DNA of 64,000 nt from Euglena gracilis (GCA_039621445.1 CP154954.1:930001-994000); one strand, 5' to 3'. Positions 13,467-64,000 are shown, counted from the first letter of the stretch. A program made the numbers and translations. Notes: generated by a model not told the origin, from the letters alone.

Positions 13467-34352
<20,886 letters not shown>

Positions 34353-37886: not shown

Positions 37887-37989
37887 TAAGGCGTAGGTCT
37901 CCAAAACCTGATGTAGTAGGTTCGAATCCTACAAAGCGCGCTTTTAGTGTACACATTATAGTAAATGTGCCCCTTGCTTGGTCACCAAG
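37887..37989 (+). pseudogene. Orphan copy of the rRNA operon leader including a pseudo-tRNA-Trp 3' portion
   Basis: Matches 45031-45133 (TAAGGCGTAGGTCTCCAAAACC...GGTCACCAAG) but no 16S follows. Confidence 0.9.
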
Positions 37990-38025
37990 GGGACTGATGT
38001 AGAAAATATTCAGTAAAGACCATTT

Positions 38026-39097
38026 AAGTACATTGGTATATATAGTATATATAATATATATAAGTACATTAATATATAAGTACAGGTATATATAGTATAT
38101 ATACTATATATAAATACATTAATATATATAAGTACATTGGTATATATAGTATATATATATATAAGTACATTAATATATATACATTGGTATATATAGTATA
38201 TATAATATATATAAGTACATTAATATATAAGTACATTGGTATATATAGTATATATATATATATAAGTACATTAATATATATAAGTACATTGGTATATATA
38301 GTAATATATATAAGTACATTAGTATATATAAGTACATTGGTATATATAGTATATATAATATATAGAAGTACATTAATATAAATAAGTACATTGGTATATA
38401 TAGTCTCTATAATATATATAAGTACATTAATATATAAGTACATTGGTATATCGTATATAATATAATAGTACATTAATATATAAGTACATTGGTATATAGT
38501 ATATATAATATATATAAGTACATTAATATATATAAGTACATTGGTATATAGTATATATAATATATATAAGTACATTAATATATATAAGTACATTGGTATA
38601 TAGTATATATAATATATATAAGTACATTATATATATAAGTACATTGGTATATATAGTATATATAATATATATAAGTACATTAATATATATACATTGGTCT
38701 ATAGTATATATAATATATATAAGTACATTATATATATAAGTACATTGGTATATATAGTATATATATATATAAGTACATTAATATATAAGTACATTGGTAT
38801 ATATAGTATATAATAATATAAGTACATTAATATATATAAGTACATTGGTATATAGTATAATATATATATAAGTACATTAATATATTATATTGGTATATAT
38901 ATATATATATATATAAGTACATTTATATATAAGTACATTGGTATATAGTATATATAATATATAAGTACATTAATATATAAGTACATTGGTATATATGTCT
39001 CTTATATAGTCCCTTATCTCTCTAGTACATTGGTATCTCTCTAGTATAGTACATTGGTTATATAGTATATAAGTACATTGTTATATATAAGTACATA
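38026..39097. repeat. VNTR of ~54-bp AT-rich units (AGTACATTGGTATATA...AGTACATTAATATATA); likely replication-origin region
   Basis: Alternating AGTACATTGG / AGTACATTAA cores separated by (TA)n; strand skew flips across it. Confidence 0.95.
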
Positions 39098-41744: not shown

Positions 41745-42658
41745 CTATTTTCGATTTCAAAGAAAAATATCAATATATTAAATTTTTTATGTATTAAATA
41801 ACTTGATACATAATTATTAGTAGTCACTACGTTTTTTATACGTAATATTATTTCCTTAACACATGGTTTTTTATATAAAAATAGGTCAATTTTTTTTATT
41901 ATTTTTTTAGAAAAAAAAAAATGCTTTGTAGACTATGTGGTAACTACATTTCAGTATCGTAATTAGTACGACAGCTCGAATTTGGGTTTTGCAATTTTTT
42001 TTTTCATTTTTTTTTTTTTTTTTGCAAATAGGGGGGGGTTGTTCTAAAATTCGGTGATTTTATTTATGGGAGATTTTTATGCATTCAATAGTGCCGGGTA
42101 AAAATTGGCATGTTTTTATTAAGACAGGATTCGGTAGTTTTGAGGATTTTAACTTATTATTCATCAAAAAAAGCAATTTCTTACATTTTATTTATGATTT
42201 TTAGGATGTATTTATTCAGAAAATTTATTTTTTTCTTTAAGCAAAACTGTGTTATTTTTTTTGCTTATATATTTTTCCTTGATTCCAGAGTTCTTGCAAT
42301 TTACTTCGGGATTTTTTAAAATTTAACCTACAACGAAATTGTAGTTAAGATATATTTTAATGATCTATTTTTTTATATTTTTTAAAAAGTTGTTATTTGT
42401 TATTATTTTTTTTTTCAATTAAGATTTTTATATTTTTCACACTCATTTTTTTTTAAAAAAATTATTATTATAGAAAAAAAATCCTTAATTGGTAACGTTG
42501 TGATTATGTTACTTCATCGTAGTGGGTCGCAAGTTCGAATTGAAGGTTTGCAAATTTTTTTTTTCATTTTTTTTTTTTTTTTTGCATAATGGAGATATGG
42601 AAGTTTGAGGTTTTCAAAAAATGATTTATTTTTTTATTTATGGGAGATTTTATTATGT
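41745..42658 (+). repeat. ~915-bp direct repeat, copy 2 (ends in the ORF351 start)
   Basis: Near-identical to 40474-41388. Confidence 0.92.
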
Positions 42659-43695
42659 ATTCAATGGTTCCAGGAAAAAACTGGCATGTTTTTATTAAAA
42701 CAGGGTTCGGTAGTTTTGAGGATTTTAACTTATTATTCATCAAAAAGTGGAAAGAGTTAATTAATTATAACTCTATTTCTTTTATTATTTATGGTTTTGA
42801 TTTGTCTGAAAATAATTTAAACAACTTTTGTGAAGTGACTATAGAGGTCTATATAGAATTTAATAAAAATTACCGAAGGCATGGTCTTAAAAAATTATTT
42901 TCTTTTGAAAAAAATTCTGTTATTGTAGAAAAGGGATCGAGTAGTAAAACTTCACTTGATAATTTTTTTTCTAAAACAGGGAATAAAAACATTGAAGTTT
43001 GTTGGTCAGGTGTTCCAAGGTTTGAAAATGGTTTAAAAAATTCTTTAAGTTTTGATTTTGTTATTAAAAATAATTTATTAAGTCGTGCGCGAAAAGATCA
43101 TTGTTTTCCTTCGTTTTTTTCTAAATTGATTTCCAATTCCTCAGAAAATTATTTAAAAGTGAAAGAAAAAATAACAGAAGAGAAAAAGGAATTAGAAATA
43201 AATGATTCTAATAATTTTTTACACGATCATTTTAATGTTTTGAAAGCTAATGATCAATTTTTAAACATCATTGAAAAATATATAATAGAGTACAAAAATT
43301 TGTTTTTTTTAACGAGTAAAAACGATGCAATAAAACTTCGTTCTATGTTGTTGAAGTATATATCTGAAGTCGCAGTATTAGAAAATAGTATCTCAAATTC
43401 TAATATTTCTAATATTTTTTTATTTAAGCAAGCTTCTAAGTTTTATAAACATAATTCTTTAAAAAACGATAATTATAAAAACTGGGATTTTAACTGGATT
43501 TTTGTGGAAATGCTTCTTATTTTTTTTCTAGAAAAAGCAAAAAATAAAAAAATTGATAAATTTGAATTATATACTTTAGTGAACAAAGAAATTTATGGTG
43601 AAGAACAGTTAGATATAATGGTTAAAAACTTTAGAAAAAGAGCTTGTGAAAATGTCGATTTACGGCAGATTCGGTCTTCATTGCCTTGTTTTTGA
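42640..43695 (+). CDS. ORF351; N-terminal ~125 aa resemble a degenerate circovirus/nanovirus-type Rep HUH domain; likely start ATG 42655
   Basis: Open frame; KNWHVFI, FIIYGFD, TIEVYIEFNKNYRRHGLKKLF, IVEKGSSS...NFFSKTG...WSGVP spaced like Rep motifs I-III (by eye). Confidence 0.65.
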   Translation: MGDFIMYSMVPGKNWHVFIKTGFGSFEDFNLLFIKKWKELINYNSISFIIYGFDLSENNLNNFCEVTIEVYIEFNKNYRRHGLKKLFSFEKNSVIVEKGSSSKTSLDNFFSKTGNKNIEVCWSGVPRFENGLKNSLSFDFVIKNNLLSRARKDHCFPSFFSKLISNSSENYLKVKEKITEEKKELEINDSNNFLHDHFNVLKANDQFLNIIEKYIIEYKNLFFLTSKNDAIKLRSMLLKYISEVAVLENSISNSNISNIFLFKQASKFYKHNSLKNDNYKNWDFNWIFVEMLLIFFLEKAKNKKIDKFELYTLVNKEIYGEEQLDIMVKNFRKRACENVDLRQIRSSLPCF

Positions 43696-43716
43696 TTTTT
43701 ATATAGGGAGAAAAGT

Positions 43717-43914
43717 ATGACAAAAAAAGAAGAAAAAAATTTAAATAATACAAAAATCAATTTAACAGTAAAAAAAATTTATAAAAAATATTGTTCTTAT
43801 AAAGCACAATATGATGAAAAAACCTGGACCAAAAATTTAGTTGAAAGCTTTTTTTTTTTTATCATTGAAAATGGGCATATTTTAAACGTAGTAGAAGTAG
43901 AATATTTTTCTTAA
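43717..43914 (+). CDS. Small hypothetical ORF (65 aa), possibly truncated
   Basis: GGGAG upstream of ATG, 21 nt after the ORF351 stop. Confidence 0.3.
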   Translation: MTKKEEKNLNNTKINLTVKKIYKKYCSYKAQYDEKTWTKNLVESFFFFIIENGHILNVVEVEYFS

Positions 43915-44087
43915 AGCGTGTCAAAAAAATCGATTAATTAAAATATAGTGTCATGGAAAATGTGATTATTCTATCACTTATTTAAATATGCTTTTTTATC
44001 AATGTCAATTTGTAGAATAATTGGCGTTTTTTTTGATGGAGTATAGTGAGTTTGCCTACTTTTTACCTTATTAAATTAATAAATTTA

Positions 44088-44998
44088 AAATTGACTTATT
44101 AAAAACTTATAGGGAGTAAATATTAAGGAAGTACCTTATCAGGATTTTGATAAGTATTCTCACTATTGAGGTTAAATATGGATTAGTTGATTATGCGTTA
44201 GTACGAGAATTTCATAGAACAGGTGGACCCTCATGTGCATTCGTATTTTATTAAAGAAGTCGATACTAAATTGGCAAATTTTTTCGATATATCTATTGAT
44301 TCTAAAATTTATAGGCCAGAGTTAACAATGAGAAAGATTTGCTCGACTATTTAATAAAACAAATATTTAACTTTGTGGATGCTTCAGAAAATTTCATGGC
44401 TTCGGAATCAATTCTTAAAAAATATGGTAAATATTTTCAATATCTTCCTTTGGAAGAAAGGATGATTGAATTAGTGAAAAAAGGGGACATAGAAAATGCT
44501 ATGTTACTGTTTGAAAAAGAAAAACCTTCAGAATTTGTATATAAGGGCGACGCTATTGAACGTCAATTAAGAAACATATATTTAAGTACGAGATTAGGTG
44601 TGAAATAAAAAATTAATTTTAATGAATACATAATACCCAAAGACTTAAGGTGGATGTTGGATATTTATGAATCCCATCTAAATATGGGTAAAAATAAGGT
44701 ATTTTTAATTTTAGGCAGTGAACATAGATATTTAATCGATTTTTTCGAATCTTATTTGCAATTTAAAGGCTTTTATCCTTTAGTAGTTAAGAAATCCAAG
44801 GATTTACTGAAATTAAACAATACTTATCATTATGATGCGATAATTTTTGTCAACTCAAATATCCTTGAATATCAAAATGTAAATGAGATAAAAAACATGT
44901 TCAACTCTTTAGAAACGACGTTAACTGCTTATTATGGAATATCTTTGATAAAGGTAGGGTCGTGGATTAAAGCCTTTCGTTCAACTTGCATGTGTTAA
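44088..44998 (+). pseudogene. Disrupted geminivirus-like rolling-circle Rep (HUH endonuclease, linker, degenerate SF3-like region)
   Basis: VREFHRTG/DPHVHSY, ANFFDI...YRP, DYLIK, AMLLFEKEKPSEFV, F..Y.IP..L.W, YDAIIF in the expected order across two frameshifts and one stop. Confidence 0.75.
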
Positions 44999-45084
44999 GC
45001 ATAGCTAAATATTGCTTTTCGTTAAAATTGTAAGGCGTAGGTCTCCAAAACCTGATGTAGTAGGTTCGAATCCTACAAAGCGCG
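44936..45084 (+). pseudogene. rRNA leader 1 with pseudo-tRNA-Ile and pseudo-tRNA-Trp fragments
   Basis: CTTTGATAAAGGTAGGGTCG resembles trnI anticodon arm; CTCCAAA loop and T-arm of trnW at 45031-45084. Confidence 0.8.
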
Positions 45085-45165
45085 CTTTTAGTGTACACAT
45101 TATAGTAAATGTGCCCCTTGCTTGGTCACCAAGAGGGTGAAAGGATTTGACCAACTTTGATGTTT

Positions 45166-45909
45166 TGGAAATGACGAGTTTGATCCTTGCTCAGGGTGAA
45201 CGCTGGCGGTATGCTTAACACATGCAAGTTGAACGAAATTACTAGCAATAGTAATTTAGTGGCGGACGGGTGAGTAATATGTAAGAATCTGCGCTTGGGT
45301 GAGGAATAACAGATGGAAACGTTTGCTAATGCCTCATAATTTACTAGATCTATGTGAGTAGCTAGTTAAAGAGAATTTCGCCTAGGCATGAGCTTGCATC
45401 TGATTAGCTTGTTGGTGAGGTAAAGGCTTACCAAGGCGACGATCAGTAGCTGATTTGAGAGGATGATCAGCCACACTGGGATTGAGAACGGAACAGACTT
45501 TTACGGAAGGCAGCAGTGAGGAATTTTCCGCAATGGGCGCAAGCCTGACGGAGCAATACCGCGTGAAGGAAGAAGGCCTTTGGGTTGTAAACTTCTTTTC
45601 TCAAAGAAGAAGAAATGACGGTATTTGAGGAATAAGCATCGGCTAATTCCGTGCCAGCAGCCGCGGTAATACGGGAGATGCGAGCGTTATCCGGAATTAT
45701 TGGGCGTAAAGAGTTTGTAGGCGGTCAAGTGTGTTTAATGTTAAAAGTCAAAGCTTAACTTTGGAAGGGCATTAAAAACTGCTAGACTTGAGTATGGTAG
45801 GGGTGAAGGGAATTTCCAGTGTAGCGGTGAAATGCGTAGAGATTGGAAAGAACACCAATGGCGAAGGCACTTTTCTAGGCCAATACTGACGCTGAGAAAC
45901 GAAAGCTGA

Positions 45910-49992: not shown

Positions 49993-50867
49993 TGGGAAGT
50001 TTAATTTATTTAATTGTCTCTTAGTGAGTTTATTTATTAATATTAACTCGATTTTCGAGTAATTTTTATGACTGCCGTTACGTTAGTGTTTTATTGCATG
50101 GATAAATGTATTGTGGTATAATTAAACCAAGGAATTTGTCAAACCACGTTTCCTTTAAGTTTGAATTTTTTTTGGCCAAAACATGATGCTTCCGAAAAAA
50201 TAAGACAATCTGTTTATAGAAATCAGTGAATTTCGTAATATTTTTCTTTTAAAATTTTAAACGATATGAATAATATCCTCGAGTGTTTGGAAAATGACTA
50301 TGTTTCTTCGCTAATATAAAAGATTAATCACAAAATTCAACAAGATAGGTTGAATCATAGTGAGAATATTAGGTAATCTTCTGATAAGAGTTTTATTTTG
50401 TTGTACATTATAGTTATTGCTACTTTGTATTTGGTTCTTTGTGTTATGTGTGTGCTTTTTAGTTGTAAATTTTTTGCTAGTAAGAAGCGTGTCGTTCATT
50501 GTCGATTTGGACGAATATTTATAAAATGCTACAAGAGACCAAAATGTCTTTATACTTCTTATATTGCTGCTGAGTACCCTATATTTTGTGATATTGAAAA
50601 ATATTAAGGTAAGGTTCCTAGACTTTCATACGTAAATGCTCATGCGCACAGTTTAGGTGTTATGCTTTTATCCCTGATCTTGTGAATTCTTTTCATTCAC
50701 AAGAAATAACTTAGCTTAATTCCTAGTGTAAATTTTTCCGTACTTTAACGTGTGGCTGGGACAATTTTTTTATTTTTAATTAAAATACCGTATAAATTTT
50801 AAAAAATAAAAAAATCAAAAGGAAAATTTTTTATTTTTCAAAGATCACTATTATCTTTTATTATTAT

Positions 50868-50995
50868 AGAATACCTTTGATAAGGGTAGGGTCGTGGATT
50901 GAATCCTTGTATTAGCCAAATATTTCTTTTCTTTAAAATCCTAAGGCGTAGGTCTCCAAAACCTGATGTAGTAGGTTCGAATCCTACAAAGCGCG
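50868..50995 (+). pseudogene. rRNA leader 2 with pseudo-trnI and pseudo-trnW fragments
   Basis: ATACCTTTGATAAGGGTAGGGTCG; trnW 3' part at 50942-50995. Confidence 0.8.
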
Positions 50996-51076
50996 CTTTT
51001 AGTGGGCACATTATAGTAAATGTGCCCCTTGCTTGGTCACCAAGAGGGTGAGAGGATTTGACCAACTTTGATGTTT

Positions 51077-51820
51077 TGGAAATGACGAGTTTGATCCTTG
51101 CTCAGGGTGAACGCTGGCGGTATGCTTAACACATGCAAGTTGAACGAAATTACTAGCAATAGTAATTTAGTGGCGGACGGGTGAGTAATATGTAAGAATC
51201 TGCGCTTGGGTGAGGAATAACAGATGGAAACGTTTGCTAATGCCTCATAATTTACTAGATCTATGTGAGTAGCTAGTTAAAGAGAATTTCGCCTAGGCAT
51301 GAGCTTGCATCTGATTAGCTTGTTGGTGAGGTAAAGGCTTACCAAGGCGACGATCAGTAGCTGATTTGAGAGGATGATCAGCCACACTGGGATTGAGAAC
51401 GGAACAGACTTCTACGGAAGGCAGCAGTGAGGAATTTTCCGCAATGGGCGCAAGCCTGACGGAGCAATACCGCGTGAAGGAAGACGGCCTTTGGGTTGTA
51501 AACTTCTTTTCTCAAAGAAGAAGAAATGACGGTATTTGAGGAATAAGCATCGGCTAATTCCGTGCCAGCAGCCGCGGTAATACGGGAGATGCGAGCGTTA
51601 TCCGGAATTATTGGGCGTAAAGAGTTTGTAGGCGGTCAAGTGTGTTTAATGTTAAAAGTCAAAGCTTAACTTTGGAAGGGCATTAAAAACTGCTAGACTT
51701 GAGTATGGTAGGGGTGAAGGGAATTTCCAGTGTAGCGGTGAAATGCGTAGAGATTGGAAAGAACACCAATGGCGAAGGCACTTTTCTAGGCCAATACTGA
51801 CGCTGAGAAACGAAAGCTGA

Positions 51821-55912: not shown

Positions 55913-56787
55913 TGGGAAGTTTAATTTATTTAATTGTCTCTTAGTGAGTTTATTTATTAATATTAACTCGATTTTCGAGTAATTTTTATGACTGCCGTTA
56001 CGTTAGTGTTTTATTGCATGGATAAATGTATTGTGGTATAATTAAACCAAGGAATTTGTCAAACCACGTTTCCTTTAAGTTTGAATTTTTTTTGGCCAAA
56101 ACATGATGCTTCGGAAAAAATAAGACAATCTGTTTATAGAAATCAGTGAATTTCGTAATATTTTTCTTTTAAAATTTTAAACGATATGAATAATATCCTC
56201 GAGTGTTTGGAAAATGACTATGTTTCTTCGCTAATATAAAAGATTAATCACAAAATTCAACAAGATAGGTTGAATCATAGTGAGAATATTAGGTAATCTT
56301 CTGATAAGAGTTTTATTTTGTTGTACATTATAGTTATTGCTACTTTGTATTTGGTTCTTTGTGTTATGTGTGTGCTTTTTAGTTGTAAATCTTTTGCTAG
56401 TAAGAAGCGTGTCGTTCATTGTCGATTTGGACGAATATTTATAAAATGCTACAAGAGACCAAAATGTCTTTATACTTCTTATATTGCTGCTGAGTACCCT
56501 ATATTTTGTGATATTGAAAAATATTAAGGTAAGGTTCCTAGACTTTCATACGTAAATGCTCATGCGCACAGTTTAGGTGTTATGCTTTTACCCCTGATCT
56601 TGTGAATTCTTTTCATTCACAAGAAATAACTTAGCTTAATTCCTAGTGTAAATTTTTCCGTACTTTAACGTGTGGCTGGGACAATTTTTTTATTTTTAAT
56701 TAAAATACCGTATAAATTTTAAAAAATAAAAAAATCAAAAGGAAAATTTTTTATTTTTCAAAGATCACTATTATCTTTTATTATTAT

Positions 56788-56915
56788 AGAATACCTTTGA
56801 TAAGGGTAGGGTCGTGGATTGAATCCTTGTATTAGCCAAATATTTCTTTTCTTTAAAATCCTAAGGCGTAGGTCTCCAAAACCTGATGTAGTAGGTTCGA
56901 ATCCTACAAAGCGCG
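56788..56915 (+). pseudogene. rRNA leader 3 with pseudo-trnI and pseudo-trnW fragments
   Basis: Same as leader 2. Confidence 0.8.
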
Positions 56916-56996
56916 CTTTTAGTGTACACATTATAGTAAATGTGCCCCTTGCTTGGTCACCAAGAGGGTGAGAGGATTTGACCAACTTTGATGTTT

Positions 56997-57745
56997 TGGA
57001 AATGACGAGTTTGATCCTTGCTCAGGGTGAACGCTGGCGGTATGCTTAACACATGCAAGTTGAACGAAATTACTAGCAATAGTAATTTAGTGGCGGACGG
57101 GTGAGTAATATGTAAGAATCTGCGCTTGGGCGAGGAATAACAGATGGAAACGTTTGCTAATGCCTCATAATTTACTAGATCTATGTGAGTAGCTAGTTAA
57201 AGAGAATTTCGCCTAGGCATGAGCTTGCATCTGATTAGCTTGTTGGTGAGGTAAAGGCTTACCAAGGCGACGATCAGTAGCTGATTTGAGAGGATGATCA
57301 GCCACACTGGGATTGAGAACGGAACAGACTTCTACGGAAGGCAGCAGTGAGGAATTTTCCGCAATGGGCGCAAGCCTGACGGAGCAATACCGCGTGAAGG
57401 AAGACGGCCTTTGGGTTGTAAACTTCTTTTCTCAAAGAAGAAGAAATGACGGTATTTGAGGAATAAGCATCGGCTAATTCCGTGCCAGCAGCCGCGGTAA
57501 TACGGGAGATGCGAGCGTTATCCGGAATTATTGGGCGTAAAGAGTTTGTAGGCGGTCAAGTGTGTTTAATGTTAAAAGTCAAAGCTTAACTTTGGAAGGG
57601 CATTAAAAACTGCTAGACTTGAGTATGGTAGGGGTGAAGGGAATTTCCAGTGTAGCGGTGAAATGAAATGCGTAGAGATTGGAAAGAACACCAATGGCGA
57701 AGGCACTTTTCTAGGCCAATACTGACGCTGAGAAACGAAAGCTGA

Positions 57746-58756: not shown

Positions 58757-60677
58757 GTTCAAATGAACAAGGGCTTATGCGGGATTGCTTGGCATTTAGA
58801 GTCGAAGAAGGGCGTAGAAATTAACGATATGCTTTAGGGAGCTAAAGACGAGCTTTAATCTAAAGATTCCCGAATGGGGCAACCTATTACTTTAACATTA
58901 CAATGAAATGGTATACAAATAATGTAGAGAACTTGGTGAACTGAAACATCTTAGTAGCCGAAGGAAAAGAAAGCAAAAGCGATTTTCTTATTAGTGGCGA
59001 GCTAACGGAAATCAGCCTAAACCTTTATGGGTGTTGTGGGTATATTATAATTACTGAAAAAGATAGAGAATTTGTTGAAAACAAAATCAAAGAGGGTTTT
59101 AAATCCCGTATTTGTTTTTAAAAAGTAATTTTTGATTTTCCCGAGTAGCATAGAGCACGTGGAATTCTGTGTGAATCAGCGAGGACCATCTCGTAAGGCT
59201 AAATACTCCTAAATGACCGATAGTGTACGAGTACCGTGAGGGAAAGCTGAAATAGAACACTGAGAAGTGAGTGAAATAGAATATGAAAGCATAAGTTTAC
59301 AAGCAGTAGGAGATCTATTTAAAGATTGACTGTGTGCCTGTTGAAGAATGAGCCGGCGACTTATAGGTGATGGCAAGGTTAAGGTTTTTCCGGAGCCATA
59401 GTGAAATCGAGCTTAAATAAAGCGAAAAACTTTCTTCTTGAAAGTTTATGTCATTGCTTATAGACCCGAACCCAGGTGATCTAATCATGGTCAGGTTGAA
59501 GTTTTGGTAAAACAGAATGGAGGACCGAACCCACCAATGTTGAAAAATTGGGGGATGAACTGTGATTAGGGGAGAAATTCCAATCGAACTTGGAGCTAGC
59601 TGGATCTCTTCGAAATGCGTTGAGGCGCAGCGTTTAATTATGGTAAACATTAGGGGTAAAGCACTGTTTCGATGCGGGCTATGAAAATGGTACCAAGTTG
59701 TGGCAAACTCTGAATACTAAGTTATATTTCAATTAATCAGTGAGACAGTGGGGGATAAGCTTCATTGTCAAGAGGGAAACAGCCCAGATCACTACTTAAG
59801 GCCCCTAAATAATTACTAAGTGGTAAAGGATGTACTATTACATAGACAACCAGGAGGTTGGCTTAGAAGCAGCCATTCCTTTAAAAAGTGCGTAATAGCT
59901 TACTGGTCAAGTGATAGTGCGCCGAAAATGAACGGGACTAAGTAATTTGCCGAAGGTGTGAGAGAAATCGGTAGAAGAGCGTTCTGTGTTGAAGAGAAGG
60001 AATAGTGAAAATAGTTCTGGATTAAACAGAAGTGAGAATGTCGGCTTAAGTAACGAAAACATTGGTGAAAATCCTATGCTCCGAAAACCTAAGGTTTCCT
60101 TAGCCAGGTTCGTCCTCTAAGGGTTAGTCAGGTCCTAAAATAAGGTTTAACAACGTAAATTGATGGATGACAGGTTAATATTCCTGTACCGAATGCTCAC
60201 TTGTAAGGAGTGACGAAAAAGGCTAGATCGGCCACGTGATGGTTTGTGGTTTAAGGGTTCAAGAGGTATCAAATATTAAAAAAAATATTTTGTCTTAAGG
60301 CCTGAATAGTATAAATACTACGGTATTGAAAGTGATTGATGTCATGTTTCCAAGAAAAACTTTTGTTTATGTATAGTGAGCTCGCCTGTACCGTAAACTG
60401 ACACAGGTAGGTTAGTAGAATATACTAAGGAGCGCGAGATAACTCTTTCTAAGGAACTCGGCAAAATGACTTCGTAACTTCGGAAGAAGAAGTACCTCTA
60501 ATGAGGTGGCAGAAAAGAGGTCCAAGCGACTGCTTACCAAAAGCACAGGTCTCCGCGAAGTTGAAAAACGATGTATGGGGGCCGAGGCCTGCTCAGTGCA
60601 GGAAGGTTAAAGAAATTGGTTAGCGTAAGCAAAGCTAGTGACTGAAGCCCCTGTGAACAGCGGCAATAACTATAATT

Positions 60678-60730
<53 letters not shown>

Positions 60731-61217
60731 TTAACGATTTGGACACTGTCTCAGAAAGAGACTCGGTGAAATAGAATTGACTGTGAAGATGCGGTCTACT
60801 TGCACTTGGACAGAAAGACCCTATGAAGCTTTACTGTATCCTGAAATTGGTTTCGGGCTTTTTTGCGCAGAATAGGTGGGAGGCTATGATCTTGTCTTTT
60901 GGGATACGGGGAGCCGAAAAATGAGATACCACTCTGAGAAAGCTAGAAATCTAATCTTAATCTTATGTACAATCATGATAATTGACAGTTTCAGGTGGGC
61001 AGTTTTACTGGGGCGGTAGCCTCCTAAAAAGTAACGGAGGCGTACAAAGGTTTTCTCAGGCTAGACGGAAATTAGTTGTGGAGTGTAAAGGCATAAGAAA
61101 GCTTGACTGTGAGACTTATAAGTCAAACAGAGACTAAAGTCGGTCTTAGTGACCCGACGGTGCTGTATGGAAAGGCCGTCGTAAACAGATAAAAGTTACT
61201 CTAGGGATAACAGGCTG

Positions 61218-61277
<60 letters not shown>

Positions 61278-61294
61278 ACCTGGGGCGGTAGTAC

Positions 61295-61329
<35 letters not shown>

Positions 61330-61462
61330 TACGTGAGCTGGGTTCAGAACGTCGAGAGACAGTTCGGTCCATATCCGGTGTGAGCGTTAGAGTATTGAAA
61401 GGCGCTTTCCTTAGTACGAGAGGACCGGGAAGGACGCACCACTGAGGTACCAGTTTTTGTGC
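58757..61462 (+). rRNA. rrl: 23S rRNA, operon 3, truncated ~180 nt before its 3' end
   Basis: Matches other copies up to CAGTTTTTGTGC, then switches to the inverted copy. Confidence 0.93.
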
Positions 61463-61567
61463 GTCCTTCCCGGTCCTCTCGTACTAAGGAAAGCGCCTTT
61501 CAATACTCTAACGCTCACACCGATATGGACCGAACTGTCTCTCGACGTTCTGAACCCAGCTCACGTA

Positions 61568-61602
<35 letters not shown>

Positions 61603-61619
61603 GTACTACCGCCCCAGGT

Positions 61620-61679
<60 letters not shown>

Positions 61680-62167
61680 CAGCCTGTTATCCCTAGAGTA
61701 ACTTTTATCTGTTTACGACGGCCTTTCCATACAGCACCGTCGGGTCACTAAGACCGACTTTAGTCTCTGTTTGACTTATAAGTCTCACAGTCAAGCTTTC
61801 TTATGCCTTTACACTCCACAACTAATTTCCGTCTAGCCTGAGAAAACCTTTGTACGCCTCCGTTACTTTTTAGGAGGCTACCGCCCCAGTAAAACTGCCC
61901 ACCTGAAACTGTCAATTATCATGATTGTACATAAGATTAAGATTAGATTTCTAGCTTTCTCAGAGTGGTATCTCATTTTTCGGCTCCCCGTATCCCAAAA
62001 GACAAGATCATAGCCTCCCACCTATTCTGCGCAAAAAAAGCCCGAAACCAATTTCAGGATACAGTAAAGCTTCATAGGGTCTTTCTGTCCAAGTGCAAGT
62101 AGACCGCATCTTCACAGTCAATTCTATTTCACCGAGTCTCTTTCTGAGACAGTGTCCAAATCGTTAA

Positions 62168-62220
<53 letters not shown>

Positions 62221-64000
62221 AATTATAGTTATTGCCGCTGTTCACAGGGGCTTCAGTCACTAGCTTTGCTTACGCTAACCAATTTCTTTAACCTTCCTGC
62301 ACTGAGCAGGCCTCGGCCCCCATACATCGTTTTTCAACTTCGCGGAGACCTGTGCTTTTGGTAAGCAGTCGCTTGGACCTCTTTTCTGCCACCTCATTAG
62401 AGGTACTTCTTCTTCCGAAGTTACGAAGTCATTTTGCCGAGTTCCTTAGAAAGAGTTATCTCGCGCTCCTTAGTATATTCTACTAACCTACCTGTGTCAG
62501 TTTACGGTACAGGCGAGCTCACTATACATAAACAAAAGTTTTTCTTGGAAACATGACATCAATCACTTTCAATACCGTAGTATTTATACTATTCAGGCCT
62601 TAAGACAAAATATTTTTTTTAATATTTGATACCTCTTGAACCCTTAAACCACAAACCATCACGTGGCCGATCTAGCCTTTTTCGTCACTCCTTACAAGTG
62701 AGCATTCGGTACAGGAATATTAACCTGTCATCCATCAATTTACGTTGTTAAACCTTATTTTAGGACCTGACTAACCCTTAGAGGACGAACCTGGCTAAGG
62801 AAACCTTAGGTTTTCGGAGCATAGGATTTTCACCAATGTTTTCGTTACTTAAGCCGACATTCTCACTTCTGTTTAATCCAGAACTATTTTCACTATTCCT
62901 TCTCTTCAACACAGAACGCTCTTCTACCGATTTCTCTCACACCTTCGGCAAATTACTTAGTCCCGTTCATTTTCGGCGCACTATCACTTGACCAGTAAGC
63001 TATTACGCACTTTTTAAAGGAATGGCTGCTTCTAAGCCAACCTCCTGGTTGTCTATGTAATAGTACATCCTTTACCACTTAGTAATTATTTAGGGGCCTT
63101 AAGTAGTGATCTGGGCTGTTTCCCTCTTGACAATGAAGCTTATCCCCCACTGTCTCACTGATTAATTGAAATATAACTTAGTATTCAGAGTTTGCCACAA
63201 CTTGGTACCATTTTCATAGCCCGCATCGAAACAGTGCTTTACCCCTAATGTTTACCATAATTAAACGCTGCGCCTCAACGCATTTCGAAGAGATCCAGCT
63301 AGCTCCAAGTTCGATTGGAATTTCTCCCCTAATCACAGTTCATCCCCCAATTTTTCAACATTGGTGGGTTCGGTCCTCCATTCTGTTTTACCAAAACTTC
63401 AACCTGACCATGATTAGATCACCTGGGTTCGGGTCTATAAGCAATGACATAAACTTTCAAGAAGAAAGTTTTTCGCTTTATTTAAGCTCGATTTCACTAT
63501 GGCTCCGGAAAAACCTTAACCTTGCCATCACCTATAAGTCGCCGGCTCATTCTTCAACAGGCACACAGTCAATCTTTAAATAGATCTCCTACTGCTTGTA
63601 AACTTATGCTTTCATATTCTATTTCACTCACTTCTCAGTGTTCTATTTCAGCTTTCCCTCACGGTACTCGTACACTATCGGTCATTTAGGAGTATTTAGC
63701 CTTACGAGATGGTCCTCGCTGATTCACACAGAATTCCACGTGCTCTATGCTACTCGGGAAAATCAAAAATTACTTTTTAAAAACAAATACGGGATTTAAA
63801 ACCCTCTTTGATTTTGTTTTCAACAAATTCTCTATCTTTTTCAGTAATTATAATATACCCACAACACCCATAAAGGTTTAGGCTGATTTCCGTTAGCTCG
63901 CCACTAATAAGAAAATCGCTTTTGCTTTCTTTTCCTTCGGCTACTAAGATGTTTCAGTTCACCAAGTTCTCTACATTATTTGTATACCATTTCATTGTAA
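61459..64000 (-). rRNA. rrl: Inverted (fold-back) partial 23S rRNA mirroring 58898-61439
   Basis: Reverse complement of the preceding 23S up to the window end. Confidence 0.93.

What the first reader, a model, noticed from the sequence alone, without database searches (positions are those of the whole stretch)
44088..44998. Fossil geminivirus-like rolling-circle Rep gene in the plastid origin region
Seen: joining + strand frames gives KLTY (44088-44099; an alternative YFLPY lies at 44057), YALVREFHRTG, a +1 shift at ~44225, DPHVHSY (HVH at 44232-44240), TKLANFFDISIDSKIYRP, a shift at ~44320, DLLDYLIK (Y at 44348), AMLLFEKEKPSEFVYKGDAIERQLRNIY, an in-frame TAA at 44606, then FNEYIIPKDLRW, KVFLILGSE, YDAIIFVN and EIKNMF. 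The two listed ORFs (44339, 44654) are one frame split by that stop. Established: geminivirus/genomovirus Reps carry motif I FLTY, RExHxDGxPHLH (motif II), the GRS (RFFD...HPN), motif III YxxK, an oligomerisation linker (A..I.E..P..F) and an SF3 helicase in this order. Inference: this is a captured viral or plasmid Rep with HUH and catalytic Tyr retained but decayed Walker A/B, cut off at its 3' end by the rRNA leader. I do not know of this being described for a Euglena plastid.
Basis: partly seen in the sequence, partly recalled or inferred. Interest (0 to 1): 0.92.

Follow-up and report, generated by a model that had tools for sequence, protein, structure and literature searches.

The report
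Dead Rep gene in Euglena plastid
A broken remnant of the replication-starter gene of a small circular DNA plasmid or virus lies just in front of the ribosomal RNA genes of a Euglena chloroplast genome, and it explains a chloroplast reading frame (ORF281) that had no known relatives.

Summary
Every quoted peptide is at the stated place. Two + frames alternate (breaks near 44225 and 44320), and a TAA at 44606 splits one frame into the two listed ORFs. Residues encoded by 44396-44923 are 83% identical (146 of 175) to Euglena gracilis chloroplast ORF281, an uncharacterised protein. A full HMMER scan with ORF281 gave 65 hits. Of the 20 long ones tested, 19 carry an N-terminal Pfam Gemini_AL1 (geminivirus Rep nuclease) domain followed by a P-loop. 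ORF281 aligns to their central and helicase parts. A profile made only from those relatives' N-termini finds the window's upstream pieces: they are the best 2 of 17 hits in all six frames of the 64 kb. The pieces joined with X at each break score 46 bits (E 2e-16), and 0 of 2000 shuffles reach that. The HxH motif and the YxxK tyrosine are kept. Walker A and B are lost, and Walker A is also lost in ORF281. The copy ends where the rRNA repeat unit begins (44929). Motif I is not demonstrated. Contigs of four runs reproduce the breaks exactly. The nearest relatives are uncharacterised environmental Reps, one on a ~2.5-kb Rep-only circle, and they are not true geminiviruses. My searches found no paper describing this.

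The parts
44088..44099 (+). KLTY, candidate for Rep motif I (frame of 44040), followed at once by TAA 44100-02. The alternative YFLPY lies at 44057 in the other frame. Not demonstrated.
   Evidence: MAFFT places it under the family's FLTYP with fitting spacing, but including either candidate does not raise the profile score: 45.8 and 45.9 against 47.2 bits without it, and likewise.
44153..44224 (+). HUH nuclease domain, first recognisable piece (..KYGLVDYALVREFHRTG), frame of 44042. It keeps the family's E.H before motif II.
   Evidence: Profile alignments. tblastn hits of relatives P0011, P0013 and P0052 at 44132-44230, and long hits of P0004, P0012, P0019 and P0049 starting at 44129-44189.
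44225..44225 (+). First frame break: the reading moves from the frame of 44042 to the frame of 44040.
   Evidence: Identical in contigs of 4 runs.
44226..44321 (+). HUH nuclease domain, second piece, frame of 44040. It holds motif II HVH (44232-44240) and the FFD...YRP stretch that corresponds to the geminivirus GRS region.
   Evidence: Best of 17 domain hits in all six frames of the window with the N-terminal profile. 17 of 62 relatives give a separate tblastn hit here (44205-44351), collinear with their hit to the ORF281 part.
44315..44325 (+). Second frame break: back to the frame of 44042.
   Evidence: (many tblastn alignments start at 44315-44321). Identical in contigs of 4 runs.
44321..44395 (+). 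End of the nuclease domain with motif III YLIK (Y 44348-50, K 44357-59).
   Evidence: Aligned with the family's near-invariant Y..K. Coordinates checked.
44396..44605 (+). Central (oligomerisation-type) helical domain. It corresponds to ORF281 residues 1-70 and is the best-kept part.
   Evidence: 79.2 bits against the family profile for the 96-residue central piece. 82 of 95 residues identical to ORF281. It aligns to positions 131-185 of my geminivirus-type profile.
44606..44608 (+). In-frame TAA that splits the frame into the ORFs 44339-44608 and 44654-44998. ORF281 reads a sense codon here.
   Evidence: The same split occurs in P0002/P0003, which come from another contig and differ by one residue each. 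Identical in contigs of 4 runs.
44609..44923 (+). Rest of the central domain plus a degenerate SF3-helicase-type domain. The Walker A place is 44714-44737 (GSEHRYLI) and the Walker B place is 44837-44854 (AIIFVN).
   Evidence: Alignment with 25 relatives. Only 11.4 bits for this part. Coordinates checked. The fold is inferred from the ORF281 model.
44929..45167 (+). Start of the rRNA repeat unit (16S leader), which replaces the last ~105 residues' worth of the gene.
   Evidence: 44929-45300 is 91% identical to 50861-51211 and 56781-57130. Likeness to ORF281 ends at ..SLETTL, 44923. No match to ORF281 residues 188-281 anywhere in the window.
42640..43695 (+). orf351, an intact neighbouring ORF. 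It may be a second, far more diverged Rep-derived gene. This is a lead only.
   Evidence: ESM Atlas: the nearest clusters are all Gemini_AL1 Reps (0.92, 198 shared features), but recognition is 2027, below the 2300 mark. Family profile: 5.0 bits, reached by 5 of 1000 shuffles. Nothing from hhalign, Pfam, PHROGs, PDB or the word-index search.

Best explanation
Window 44153-44923 (+ strand) is the decayed remnant of a Rep gene. Rep is the rolling-circle replication initiator, made of an HUH nuclease domain, a central oligomerisation domain and an SF3 helicase domain. This copy belongs to the geminivirus-like branch of CRESS-DNA replicons. Inferred history: a small circular Rep-encoding replicon entered the plastid genome of an ancestor of Euglena gracilis. 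Its nearest relatives today are uncharacterised environmental elements, and at least one of them is a ~2.5-kb circle that carries Rep alone. The ATPase motifs were lost before this copy and E. gracilis ORF281 diverged, because both lack the GK[ST] of Walker A in the same way. In this genome the gene then took two frame breaks and at least one in-frame stop, and it lost its 3' end where the rRNA repeat unit now begins. It cannot make a working Rep, so it is a fossil. Shown here: the homology, the domain order, the state of each motif, the breaks, and that the breaks are really in the DNA. Inferred: the donor's nature (plasmid or virus), the order of events, and that nothing useful is still expressed.
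For: ORF281 (P0001) matches 44396-44956 by tblastn, and 146 of 175 homologous residues are identical. phmmer of ORF281 against 1.84 billion representatives gave 65 hits at E<=1e-3 and 17 at E<=1e-10. The long hits (330-570 aa) align ORF281 to their C-terminal two thirds. 19 of 20 long hits carry Pfam PF00799 Gemini_AL1 N-terminally (E 8e-8 to 2e-22), and most have P-loop matches further on. tblastn of 62 relatives against 43701-45100: 49 hit, many from 44315-44321 onward, and 17 add a collinear hit in the other + frame at 44205-44351. With the N-terminal-only profile, the two best of 17 six-frame hits in the 64 kb are 44226-44330 and 44162-44386. The joined-with-X N-terminus scores 46.0 bits, E 2.4e-16, and 0 of 2000 shuffles reach it. 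The whole reading scores 147.8 bits. A profile of the family hits solved geminivirus Rep nuclease domains (6q1m, 6we0, 1l2m) at E 1e-23 to 1e-27. The AlphaFold model of ORF281 with 45 aligned sequences has pLDDT 87.8, and its best PDB matches are SF3 helicases: papillomavirus E1 at E 3e-6, then AAV Rep40/68. In the tree the two Euglena rows pair (100) inside the environmental clade (96), apart from 29 geminivirus-type Reps (98). The breaks are reproduced without a difference in contigs of 4 runs.
Against: Pfam, PHROGs and PDB phmmer find nothing in the single fragments, in the read-through 227-aa frame or in ORF281 itself. The family link therefore rests on intermediate sequences. Motif I is not recovered. 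Single-frame hits are weak on their own: 4.0 and 2.2 bits. The ORF281 structure model is driven by an alignment of relatives with intact helicases. No origin-type stem-loop lies near the relic. Whether ORF281 is the same locus in another strain or a second copy in the same genome is unresolved: rps7 is 99% identical to a Euglena g... entry, ORF281 only 83%, and its source name places it between rbcL and atpE.
Confidence: 0.93

Rival explanations
1. The remnant is still partly in use. A helicase-dead, Rep-derived protein (ORF281 in E. gracilis, the 89-aa or 114-aa ORFs here, or the neighbouring intact orf351) was domesticated, for example as a DNA-binding or oligomerising factor acting at the plastid origin or the rRNA tandem array.
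For: ORF281 is an open 281-codon frame despite lost ATPase motifs. The central domain is the best-kept part: 79-83 bits in 96 residues, against 11-23 bits for the helicase part. HxH and YxxK survive in the window despite the frame breaks. orf351 next door is intact and looks Rep-like to a language model. The model of ORF281 folds confidently.
Against: Identity between the two copies is no higher in the central part (82 of 95) than in the helicase part (64 of 80), Fisher p 0.31. That gives no sign of selective constraint. In this genome the frame is broken three times and truncated. The nuclease motifs and the central domain lie in different frames. The orf351 link fails hhalign and is marginal by HMMER. 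No expression data were obtained.
Confidence: 0.1
2. The gene is intact and the breaks are errors of sequencing or assembly, or they are bypassed by programmed frameshifting and read-through.
For: The catalytic motifs of the nuclease domain are kept. The breaks are few.
Against: Contigs of 4 runs from 4 studies show the same letters, with no indel, over 43950-45003. 20 of 24 listed runs from 13 studies hold at least 78% of the stretch's sampled words. A second haplotype (P0002/P0003) has the same TAA split. Walker A and B are gone and the 3' end is replaced by the rRNA leader, so even a read-through product would not be a Rep.
Confidence: 0.02
3. The motifs are a chance pattern in AT-rich spacer DNA picked out by frame-hopping, and ORF281 is an unrelated lineage-specific ORF.
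For: Pfam, PHROGs and PDB searches of the fragments are blank. Short motifs such as HxH and YxxK are common. Nonanucleotide-like words occur at the chance rate: 28 found, 23 expected.
Against: argue against it, as set out under the best explanation. The N-terminal profile was built without any window sequence, yet its two best six-frame hits fall exactly upstream of the ORF281-like stretch. The X-joined score (46 bits) is beyond all 2000 shuffles.
Confidence: 0.02
4. The stretch is contamination or a chimeric join of a free Rep-encoding circle with plastid DNA, not part of the plastid genome.
For: The relatives live on very small contigs of 1.1-2.9 kb. The right end of the window shows a suspicious fold-back in the third 23S gene.
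Against: Single contigs of two runs (2344 and 2288 nt) run from before 43950 through the relic into the rRNA leader. GC content is 28% here, like the flanks at 22-26%. The copy is decayed and truncated by the rRNA repeat unit. An 83% identical ORF is annotated in the E. gracilis chloroplast.
Confidence: 0.02

Closest known systems
Euglena gracilis chloroplast ORF281 ('Uncharacterized 33.1 kDa protein in rbcL-atpE intergenic region', P0001)
   Same: 146 of 175 residues are identical over the shared part. It has the same central domain and the same loss of the Walker A GK[ST]. The two pair with full support in the tree.
   Different: ORF281 is an open 281-codon frame that runs through the whole helicase-type domain plus a tail. 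It starts after the nuclease domain. The window copy has the nuclease remnants upstream, an in-frame stop, and no 3' end. Same locus or second copy: not resolved.
Uncharacterised environmental Rep family (P0004-P0065), e.g. the ~2.5-kb Rep-only circle L099
   Same: True homologues over nuclease, central and helicase parts (E down to 2e-23). Low GC, about 30%.
   Different: They are intact, with G.PG.GK[ST], hhhhDD and RR motifs. In L099 the Rep gene starts at 38 and again at 2541, so it is a ~2.5-kb circle or tandem with no second large ORF. It has a GC-rich stem-loop whose loop holds TAACATTAC, and 14-nt iterons. No such origin is seen beside the plastid relic. Their hosts are unknown.
Geminiviridae Rep (Pfam Gemini_AL1 / Gemini_AL1_M; solved nuclease domains 6q1m, 6we0, 1l2m)
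   Same: Same domain order and motif layout. The family profile hits these structures at E 1e-23 to 1e-27. The window's central part aligns to the central region of my geminivirus-type profile.
   Different: The Euglena pair and its relatives form a clade (96) apart from the 29 geminivirus-type Reps (98). Only 1 of 20 relatives shows even a sub-threshold Gemini_AL1_M match. There is no capsid gene and no TAATATTAC hairpin here. It is not a geminivirus.
Plasmids with CRESS-type Reps in red algae (Pyropia pulchra) and phytoplasmas
   Same: These are Rep-bearing plasmids derived from CRESS-DNA viruses, per passages of Kazlauskas et al. 2019 (PMC6668415, seen). They are the nearest published precedent for a plasmid-like, capsid-less relative in an alga.
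   Different: I made no sequence comparison with them. They are free plasmids, not integrated in a plastid genome.
Endogenous geminivirus-like and other CRESS Rep sequences in eukaryotic nuclear genomes
   Same: These are Rep genes captured and decaying in a host genome (PMC7758297, listing and abstract only; PMC3198968, term search only).
   Different: Those are nuclear. This one lies in a plastid genome. PMC3198968 does not contain the words Euglena, chloroplast, plastid or organelle.

Membership tests
HUH-nuclease Rep of the geminivirus-like CRESS type (Pfam PF00799 Gemini_AL1) | Significant profile match to the nuclease domain | tested here: met
   Met indirectly. Pfam on the single fragments finds nothing. 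The relatives found through ORF281 carry PF00799 in 19 of 20 cases, and a profile of their N-termini matches the X-joined window pieces at 46.0 bits, E 2.4e-16.
HUH-nuclease Rep of the geminivirus-like CRESS type (Pfam PF00799 Gemini_AL1) | Motif I (uuTu, FLTYP in the relatives) | tested here: inconclusive
   KLTY (44088) has fitting spacing in MAFFT, but neither it nor YFLPY (44057) raises the profile score. A stop follows KLTY directly.
HUH-nuclease Rep of the geminivirus-like CRESS type (Pfam PF00799 Gemini_AL1) | Motif II HUH (two His around a hydrophobic residue) | tested here: met
   HVH at 44232-44240 aligns with the family's near-invariant H.H.
HUH-nuclease Rep of the geminivirus-like CRESS type (Pfam PF00799 Gemini_AL1) | Motif III YxxK with the catalytic Tyr | tested here: met
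   YLIK at 44348-44359 aligns with the family's near-invariant Y..K.
HUH-nuclease Rep of the geminivirus-like CRESS type (Pfam PF00799 Gemini_AL1) | One uninterrupted reading frame that encodes the whole protein | tested here: not met
   There are two frame breaks (~44225, ~44320), a TAA at 44606 and a truncation at 44929, all confirmed in contigs of 4 runs. It is a remnant of a member, not a working member.
SF3 helicase domain of CRESS Reps | Walker A GxxxxGK[ST] | tested here: not met
   The window has GSEHRYLI and ORF281 has GGELRYLI where the relatives have G.PG.GK[ST].
SF3 helicase domain of CRESS Reps | Walker B hhhhDD, motif C Asn, arginine finger | tested here: not met
   Window: IIFVN, and the rest is truncated away. 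ORF281: IIFSD, no motif C Asn, and ME where the relatives have RR.
SF3 helicase domain of CRESS Reps | SF3 / AAA+-like fold preceded by a helical oligomerisation domain | tested here: met
   Met for ORF281, not for the window copy. The AlphaFold model has pLDDT 87.8, and the best Foldseek PDB matches are papillomavirus E1 (E 3e-6, TM 0.36) and AAV2 Rep40/68, with RuvB also high. The model leans on an alignment of intact relatives.
Geminiviridae (the virus family itself) | Rep groups with geminivirus Reps; capsid gene; TAATATTAC origin hairpin | tested here: not met
   The tree separates them (96 and 98). No capsid-like ORF or hairpin lies nearby.

The most novel reading that the evidence does not exclude
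A rolling-circle replicon once lived inside euglenid plastids, and its Rep was domesticated after integration. On this reading a helicase-dead nuclease/oligomerisation protein worked for a time at the plastid origin or drove amplification of the rRNA tandem array. The Rep remnant sits exactly at the left edge of that array. ORF281 and the intact neighbour orf351 would then be surviving or recently retired products of that domestication.
Probability: 0.1. Interest if true: 0.85.

Novelty: new variant of a known kind. Interest (0 to 1): 0.62.

Why it matters
Captured Rep genes of CRESS-DNA viruses are well known in nuclear genomes. I found no report of one in a plastid genome. The finding gives an identity to ORF281, an orphan reading frame of the Euglena gracilis chloroplast genome that Pfam still leaves blank. 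It implies that a small rolling-circle replicon, a plasmid or a virus, once had access to the plastid compartment of a euglenid. It ties a large, uncharacterised environmental clade of geminivirus-like, apparently capsid-less Rep circles to a possible host setting. The relic lies at the exact left border of the tandem rRNA array and about 5 kb from the VNTR. That makes it a useful marker for reconstructing how this unusual region of the euglenid plastome was built.

Tried and rejected
Searches of the fragments and ORF281 in curated libraries:
- Pfam, PHROGs and PDB phmmer on the single fragments, on the read-through 227-aa frame and on ORF281 gave no Rep match.
- tblastn of the 43-aa motif II piece against PLSDB plasmids gave no match.

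Searches for related loci:
- The search for related loci with ORF281 in metagenome and viral contigs found no relative.

Other checks that led nowhere:
- The single-sequence AlphaFold model of ORF281 was too poor to use, pLDDT 49.8.
- No whole genome is held for the window.
- Earlier findings of the scan: nothing by place, sequence or words.
- tblastn of orf351, orf380 and orf174 against 43700-45200 gave only noise, best E 0.13.
- No origin hairpin was found near the relic. NANTATTAC-type words occur at the chance rate (28 found, 23 expected, none between 41850 and 47988), there are only AT-rich short inverted repeats, and there is one ATTAC site and no stem in 42000-44400.

A claim I withdrew: one search suggested the central domain is better conserved between the two copies than the helicase part. 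That figure included the non-homologous tail. Corrected, it is 82/95 against 64/80, p 0.31. The tree's end-branch lengths for the two Euglena rows have the same flaw and are not used.

orf351 as a second Rep: hhalign against A1 gave probability 0.1, PDB gave nothing, and the word-index homologue search gave nothing. orf380 had no usable Atlas hit.

Expression: no RNA holder is listed among the runs, so nothing can be said.

Literature: and term searches inside PMC9728796, PMC5572947, PMC3198968 and PMC6668415, found no paper linking a Euglena plastid ORF to Rep. Subscription journals and supplementary files were not visible and may bear on this.

Full report
SETTING. The window is euglenid plastid DNA. 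It holds rps7, tufA, photosystem genes, a group II intron maturase and chlI. Three tandem rRNA operons follow from 45168 onward. Its rps7 is 99% identical to a UniRef entry of 'Euglena g...', and the next best hit is 70%. The organism is therefore Euglena gracilis or a very close strain. The finding lies in the last kilobase before the first 16S gene.

OBSERVATION. Two + frames alternate. The frame of 44042 carries ..KYGLVDYALVREFHRTG up to 44224. The frame of 44040 carries DPHVHSYF...FFD...YRPE (44226-44321). The frame of 44042 then resumes with ..DLLDYLIKQ.. and runs to 44998, interrupted by TAA at 44606. That stop is why two ORFs (44339-44608 and 44654-44998) are listed.

FIRST ROUND OF TESTS: BLANK. 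Pfam, PHROGs and a PDB sequence search found no Rep in any single fragment or in the 227-residue read-through.

THE LINK TO ORF281. The read-through frame has one close relative among 5.8 billion proteins. It is E. gracilis chloroplast ORF281, 'Uncharacterized 33.1 kDa protein in rbcL-atpE intergenic region'. It aligns without gaps to 44396-44956, and 146 of 175 truly homologous residues are identical. ORF281 itself has no Pfam or PDB match.

RELATIVES OF ORF281. A full HMMER scan of ORF281 against 1.84 billion representative proteins gave 65 hits at E<=1e-3 and 17 at E<=1e-10. Two of them, P0002 and P0003, are near-copies of the window's own two ORFs. The long hits (330-570 aa) align ORF281 to their C-terminal two thirds, which leaves 110-300 unmatched residues at their N-termini. 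I ran Pfam on 20 of these long hits. Nineteen have an N-terminal Gemini_AL1 domain (PF00799, the geminivirus Rep catalytic domain; E 8e-8 to 2e-22), and most show P-loop NTPase matches further on. One, P0017, has neither. ORF281 is therefore the central plus helicase part of a geminivirus-like Rep.

IS THE NUCLEASE DOMAIN UPSTREAM IN THE WINDOW?
- tblastn of the 62 relatives against 43701-45100: 49 hit. Many alignments begin at 44315-44321, well upstream of the ORF281 start and across the YLIK motif. Seventeen relatives give a second, collinear hit in the other + frame at 44205-44351. Three more give a hit in the ORF281 frame at 44132-44230. Three stray hits elsewhere have E 0.5-0.7.
- A profile built only from the relatives' N-terminal 150 residues, searched against all six frames of the 64 kb, puts its two best hits (of 17) at 44226-44330 and 44162-44386. 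These are weak singly, at 4.0 and 2.2 bits.
- The pieces joined by coordinate with X at each break score 46.0 bits, E 2.4e-16. None of 2000 shuffles exceeds 10.2 bits.
- Against a full-length family profile the whole X-joined reading scores 147.8 bits. By part: nuclease 42.3, central 79.2, helicase 11.4.
- An independent profile made from 38 geminivirus-type Reps fetched from IMG/VR also aligns the joined reading from the nuclease domain through the central domain: 17.4 bits, E 1.2e-7, and 0 of 1000 shuffles reach it.

STATE OF THE MOTIFS.
- HVH (44232-40) and YLIK (44348-59) sit under the family's near-invariant H.H and Y..K.
- The E.H before motif II is also kept.
- Motif I is not demonstrated. 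KLTY aligns under FLTYP with plausible spacing, but neither it nor YFLPY improves the score, and a stop follows it directly.
- Where the relatives have G.PG.GK[ST], the window has GSEHRYLI and ORF281 has GGELRYLI. This shared loss predates their divergence.
- Walker B (hhhhDD) reads IIFVN in the window and IIFSD in ORF281.
- In ORF281 the motif C Asn and the RR finger are gone too.
- With the family alignment, AlphaFold models ORF281 confidently (pLDDT 87.8). Its best solved look-alikes are SF3 helicases: papillomavirus E1 and AAV Rep40/68. This model leans on intact relatives.

THE 3' END. Likeness to ORF281 stops at ..SLETTL (44923). From 44929 the sequence is 91% identical to the spacers ahead of the second and third 16S genes. 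ORF281 residues 188-281 have no counterpart anywhere in the window.

ARE THE BREAKS REAL? Twenty of 24 listed public runs, from 13 studies, hold at least 78% of the stretch's sampled words. Contigs of four runs from four studies cover 43950-45003 with no differing letter and no indel. Two of them do so in a single contig that runs on into the leader. One run may be the window's own source. P0002 and P0003, from another contig, differ by one residue each and show the same TAA split.

WHAT THE DONOR WAS LIKE. The relatives come from contigs of 1.1-2.9 kb. In L099 (2941 nt) the 542-codon Rep gene starts at 38 and again at 2541. It is therefore a ~2.5-kb circle or tandem with no second sizeable ORF. 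Its GC content is ~30%. It has a GC-rich stem-loop (z -4.7) whose loop holds TAACATTAC, and runs of 14-nt iterons. L100 is a second, similar element. In a tree of 80 Reps the two Euglena rows pair (100) on a long stem inside the environmental clade (96), apart from 29 geminivirus-type Reps (98). The family profile hits solved geminivirus Rep nuclease domains at E 1e-23 to 1e-27. The relic is therefore geminivirus-like but not a geminivirus. The only relative whose whole replicon I could read is capsid-less and plasmid-like.

MOST LIKELY HISTORY (inferred). A small rolling-circle replicon integrated into the plastid genome of an ancestor of E. gracilis. The helicase lost its ATPase motifs. This copy was later broken and truncated when, or after, the rRNA unit came to abut it. 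It now does nothing as a Rep.

WHAT IS UNRESOLVED. I could not decide whether ORF281 is this same locus in a divergent strain or a second copy elsewhere in the same genome. rps7 is 99% identical but ORF281 only 83%. The source name places ORF281 between rbcL and atpE. No contig-derived protein clusters with P0001.

NEIGHBOURHOOD.
- A VNTR of 58 copies of a ~17-nt unit lies at 38025-38996, 5.1 kb upstream. That the origin maps near it in E. gracilis is recalled, not tested.
- The intact orf351 (42640-43695), just upstream, has only Gemini_AL1 Rep clusters as its nearest neighbours in the ESM Atlas (0.92). Recognition is below the trust mark.
- hhalign finds nothing for orf351, and the family profile gives 5.0 bits, which 5 of 1000 shuffles reach. 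It remains a lead.

NOVELTY. Nine literature searches, and term searches inside four papers, found nothing that links a Euglena plastid ORF to Rep. Supplements and subscription journals were not visible. Endogenous Rep relics are a known kind. One in a plastid genome, which also explains an old orphan ORF, is a new variant of that kind.

Noticed in passing
window 42640-43695 (+): orf351 is an intact 351-codon ORF with no detectable homologue. Its nearest ESM Atlas clusters are all Gemini_AL1 Rep families (0.92, 0.91, 0.90). The family profile gives a marginal 5.0 bits at residues 130-228, and 5 of 1000 shuffles reach that. It may be a second, much more diverged Rep-derived gene.
   Followed up: partly
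window 38025-38996: A VNTR of about 58 copies of a ~17-nt AT-rich unit. The listed 174-aa ORF on the - strand (38069-38593) is just a translation of this array.
   Followed up: partly
window 37887-37992 and 45031-45136: A 106-nt piece of the 16S leader is repeated at 99% identity just before the VNTR, 7 kb upstream of the rRNA array. It overlaps the tRNA-like element at 45012-45084, which Rfam scores at 37 bits and ARAGORN does not call.
   Followed up: no
window 44975-45003 and 45210-45238 (also 51121-51149, 57041-57069): A perfect 29-nt inverted repeat between the 16S leader and the 5' part of the 16S gene. It could pair in the precursor RNA.
   Followed up: no
window 58757-64000: The third 23S gene (+, to 61668) overlaps an inverted 23S copy (-, 61229-64000). 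Both score lower than the other copies. This is a fold-back junction that may be an assembly artefact or a real palindromic end.
   Followed up: no
L099 1-2941 (metagenome contig): A ~2.5-kb Rep-only circular or tandem element. It has a 542-aa Rep, a GC-rich stem-loop at 1943-1982 whose loop holds TAACATTAC, 14-nt iterons at 2003-2164 and 13-nt repeats at 1750-1800. It represents an uncharacterised clade of capsid-less geminivirus-like replicons.
   Followed up: partly
P0002 / P0003 (a 1379-nt contig of another source): A second haplotype of the relic with the same TAA split and one residue changed in each ORF. In it motif III reads YLTK, as in most relatives.
   Followed up: no
window 15600-15669 (+): An Rfam IsrR match at 53.8 bits, just above its threshold of 52. 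It is probably only the likeness of psbC-type coding sequence to isiA, not a real antisense RNA.
   Followed up: no
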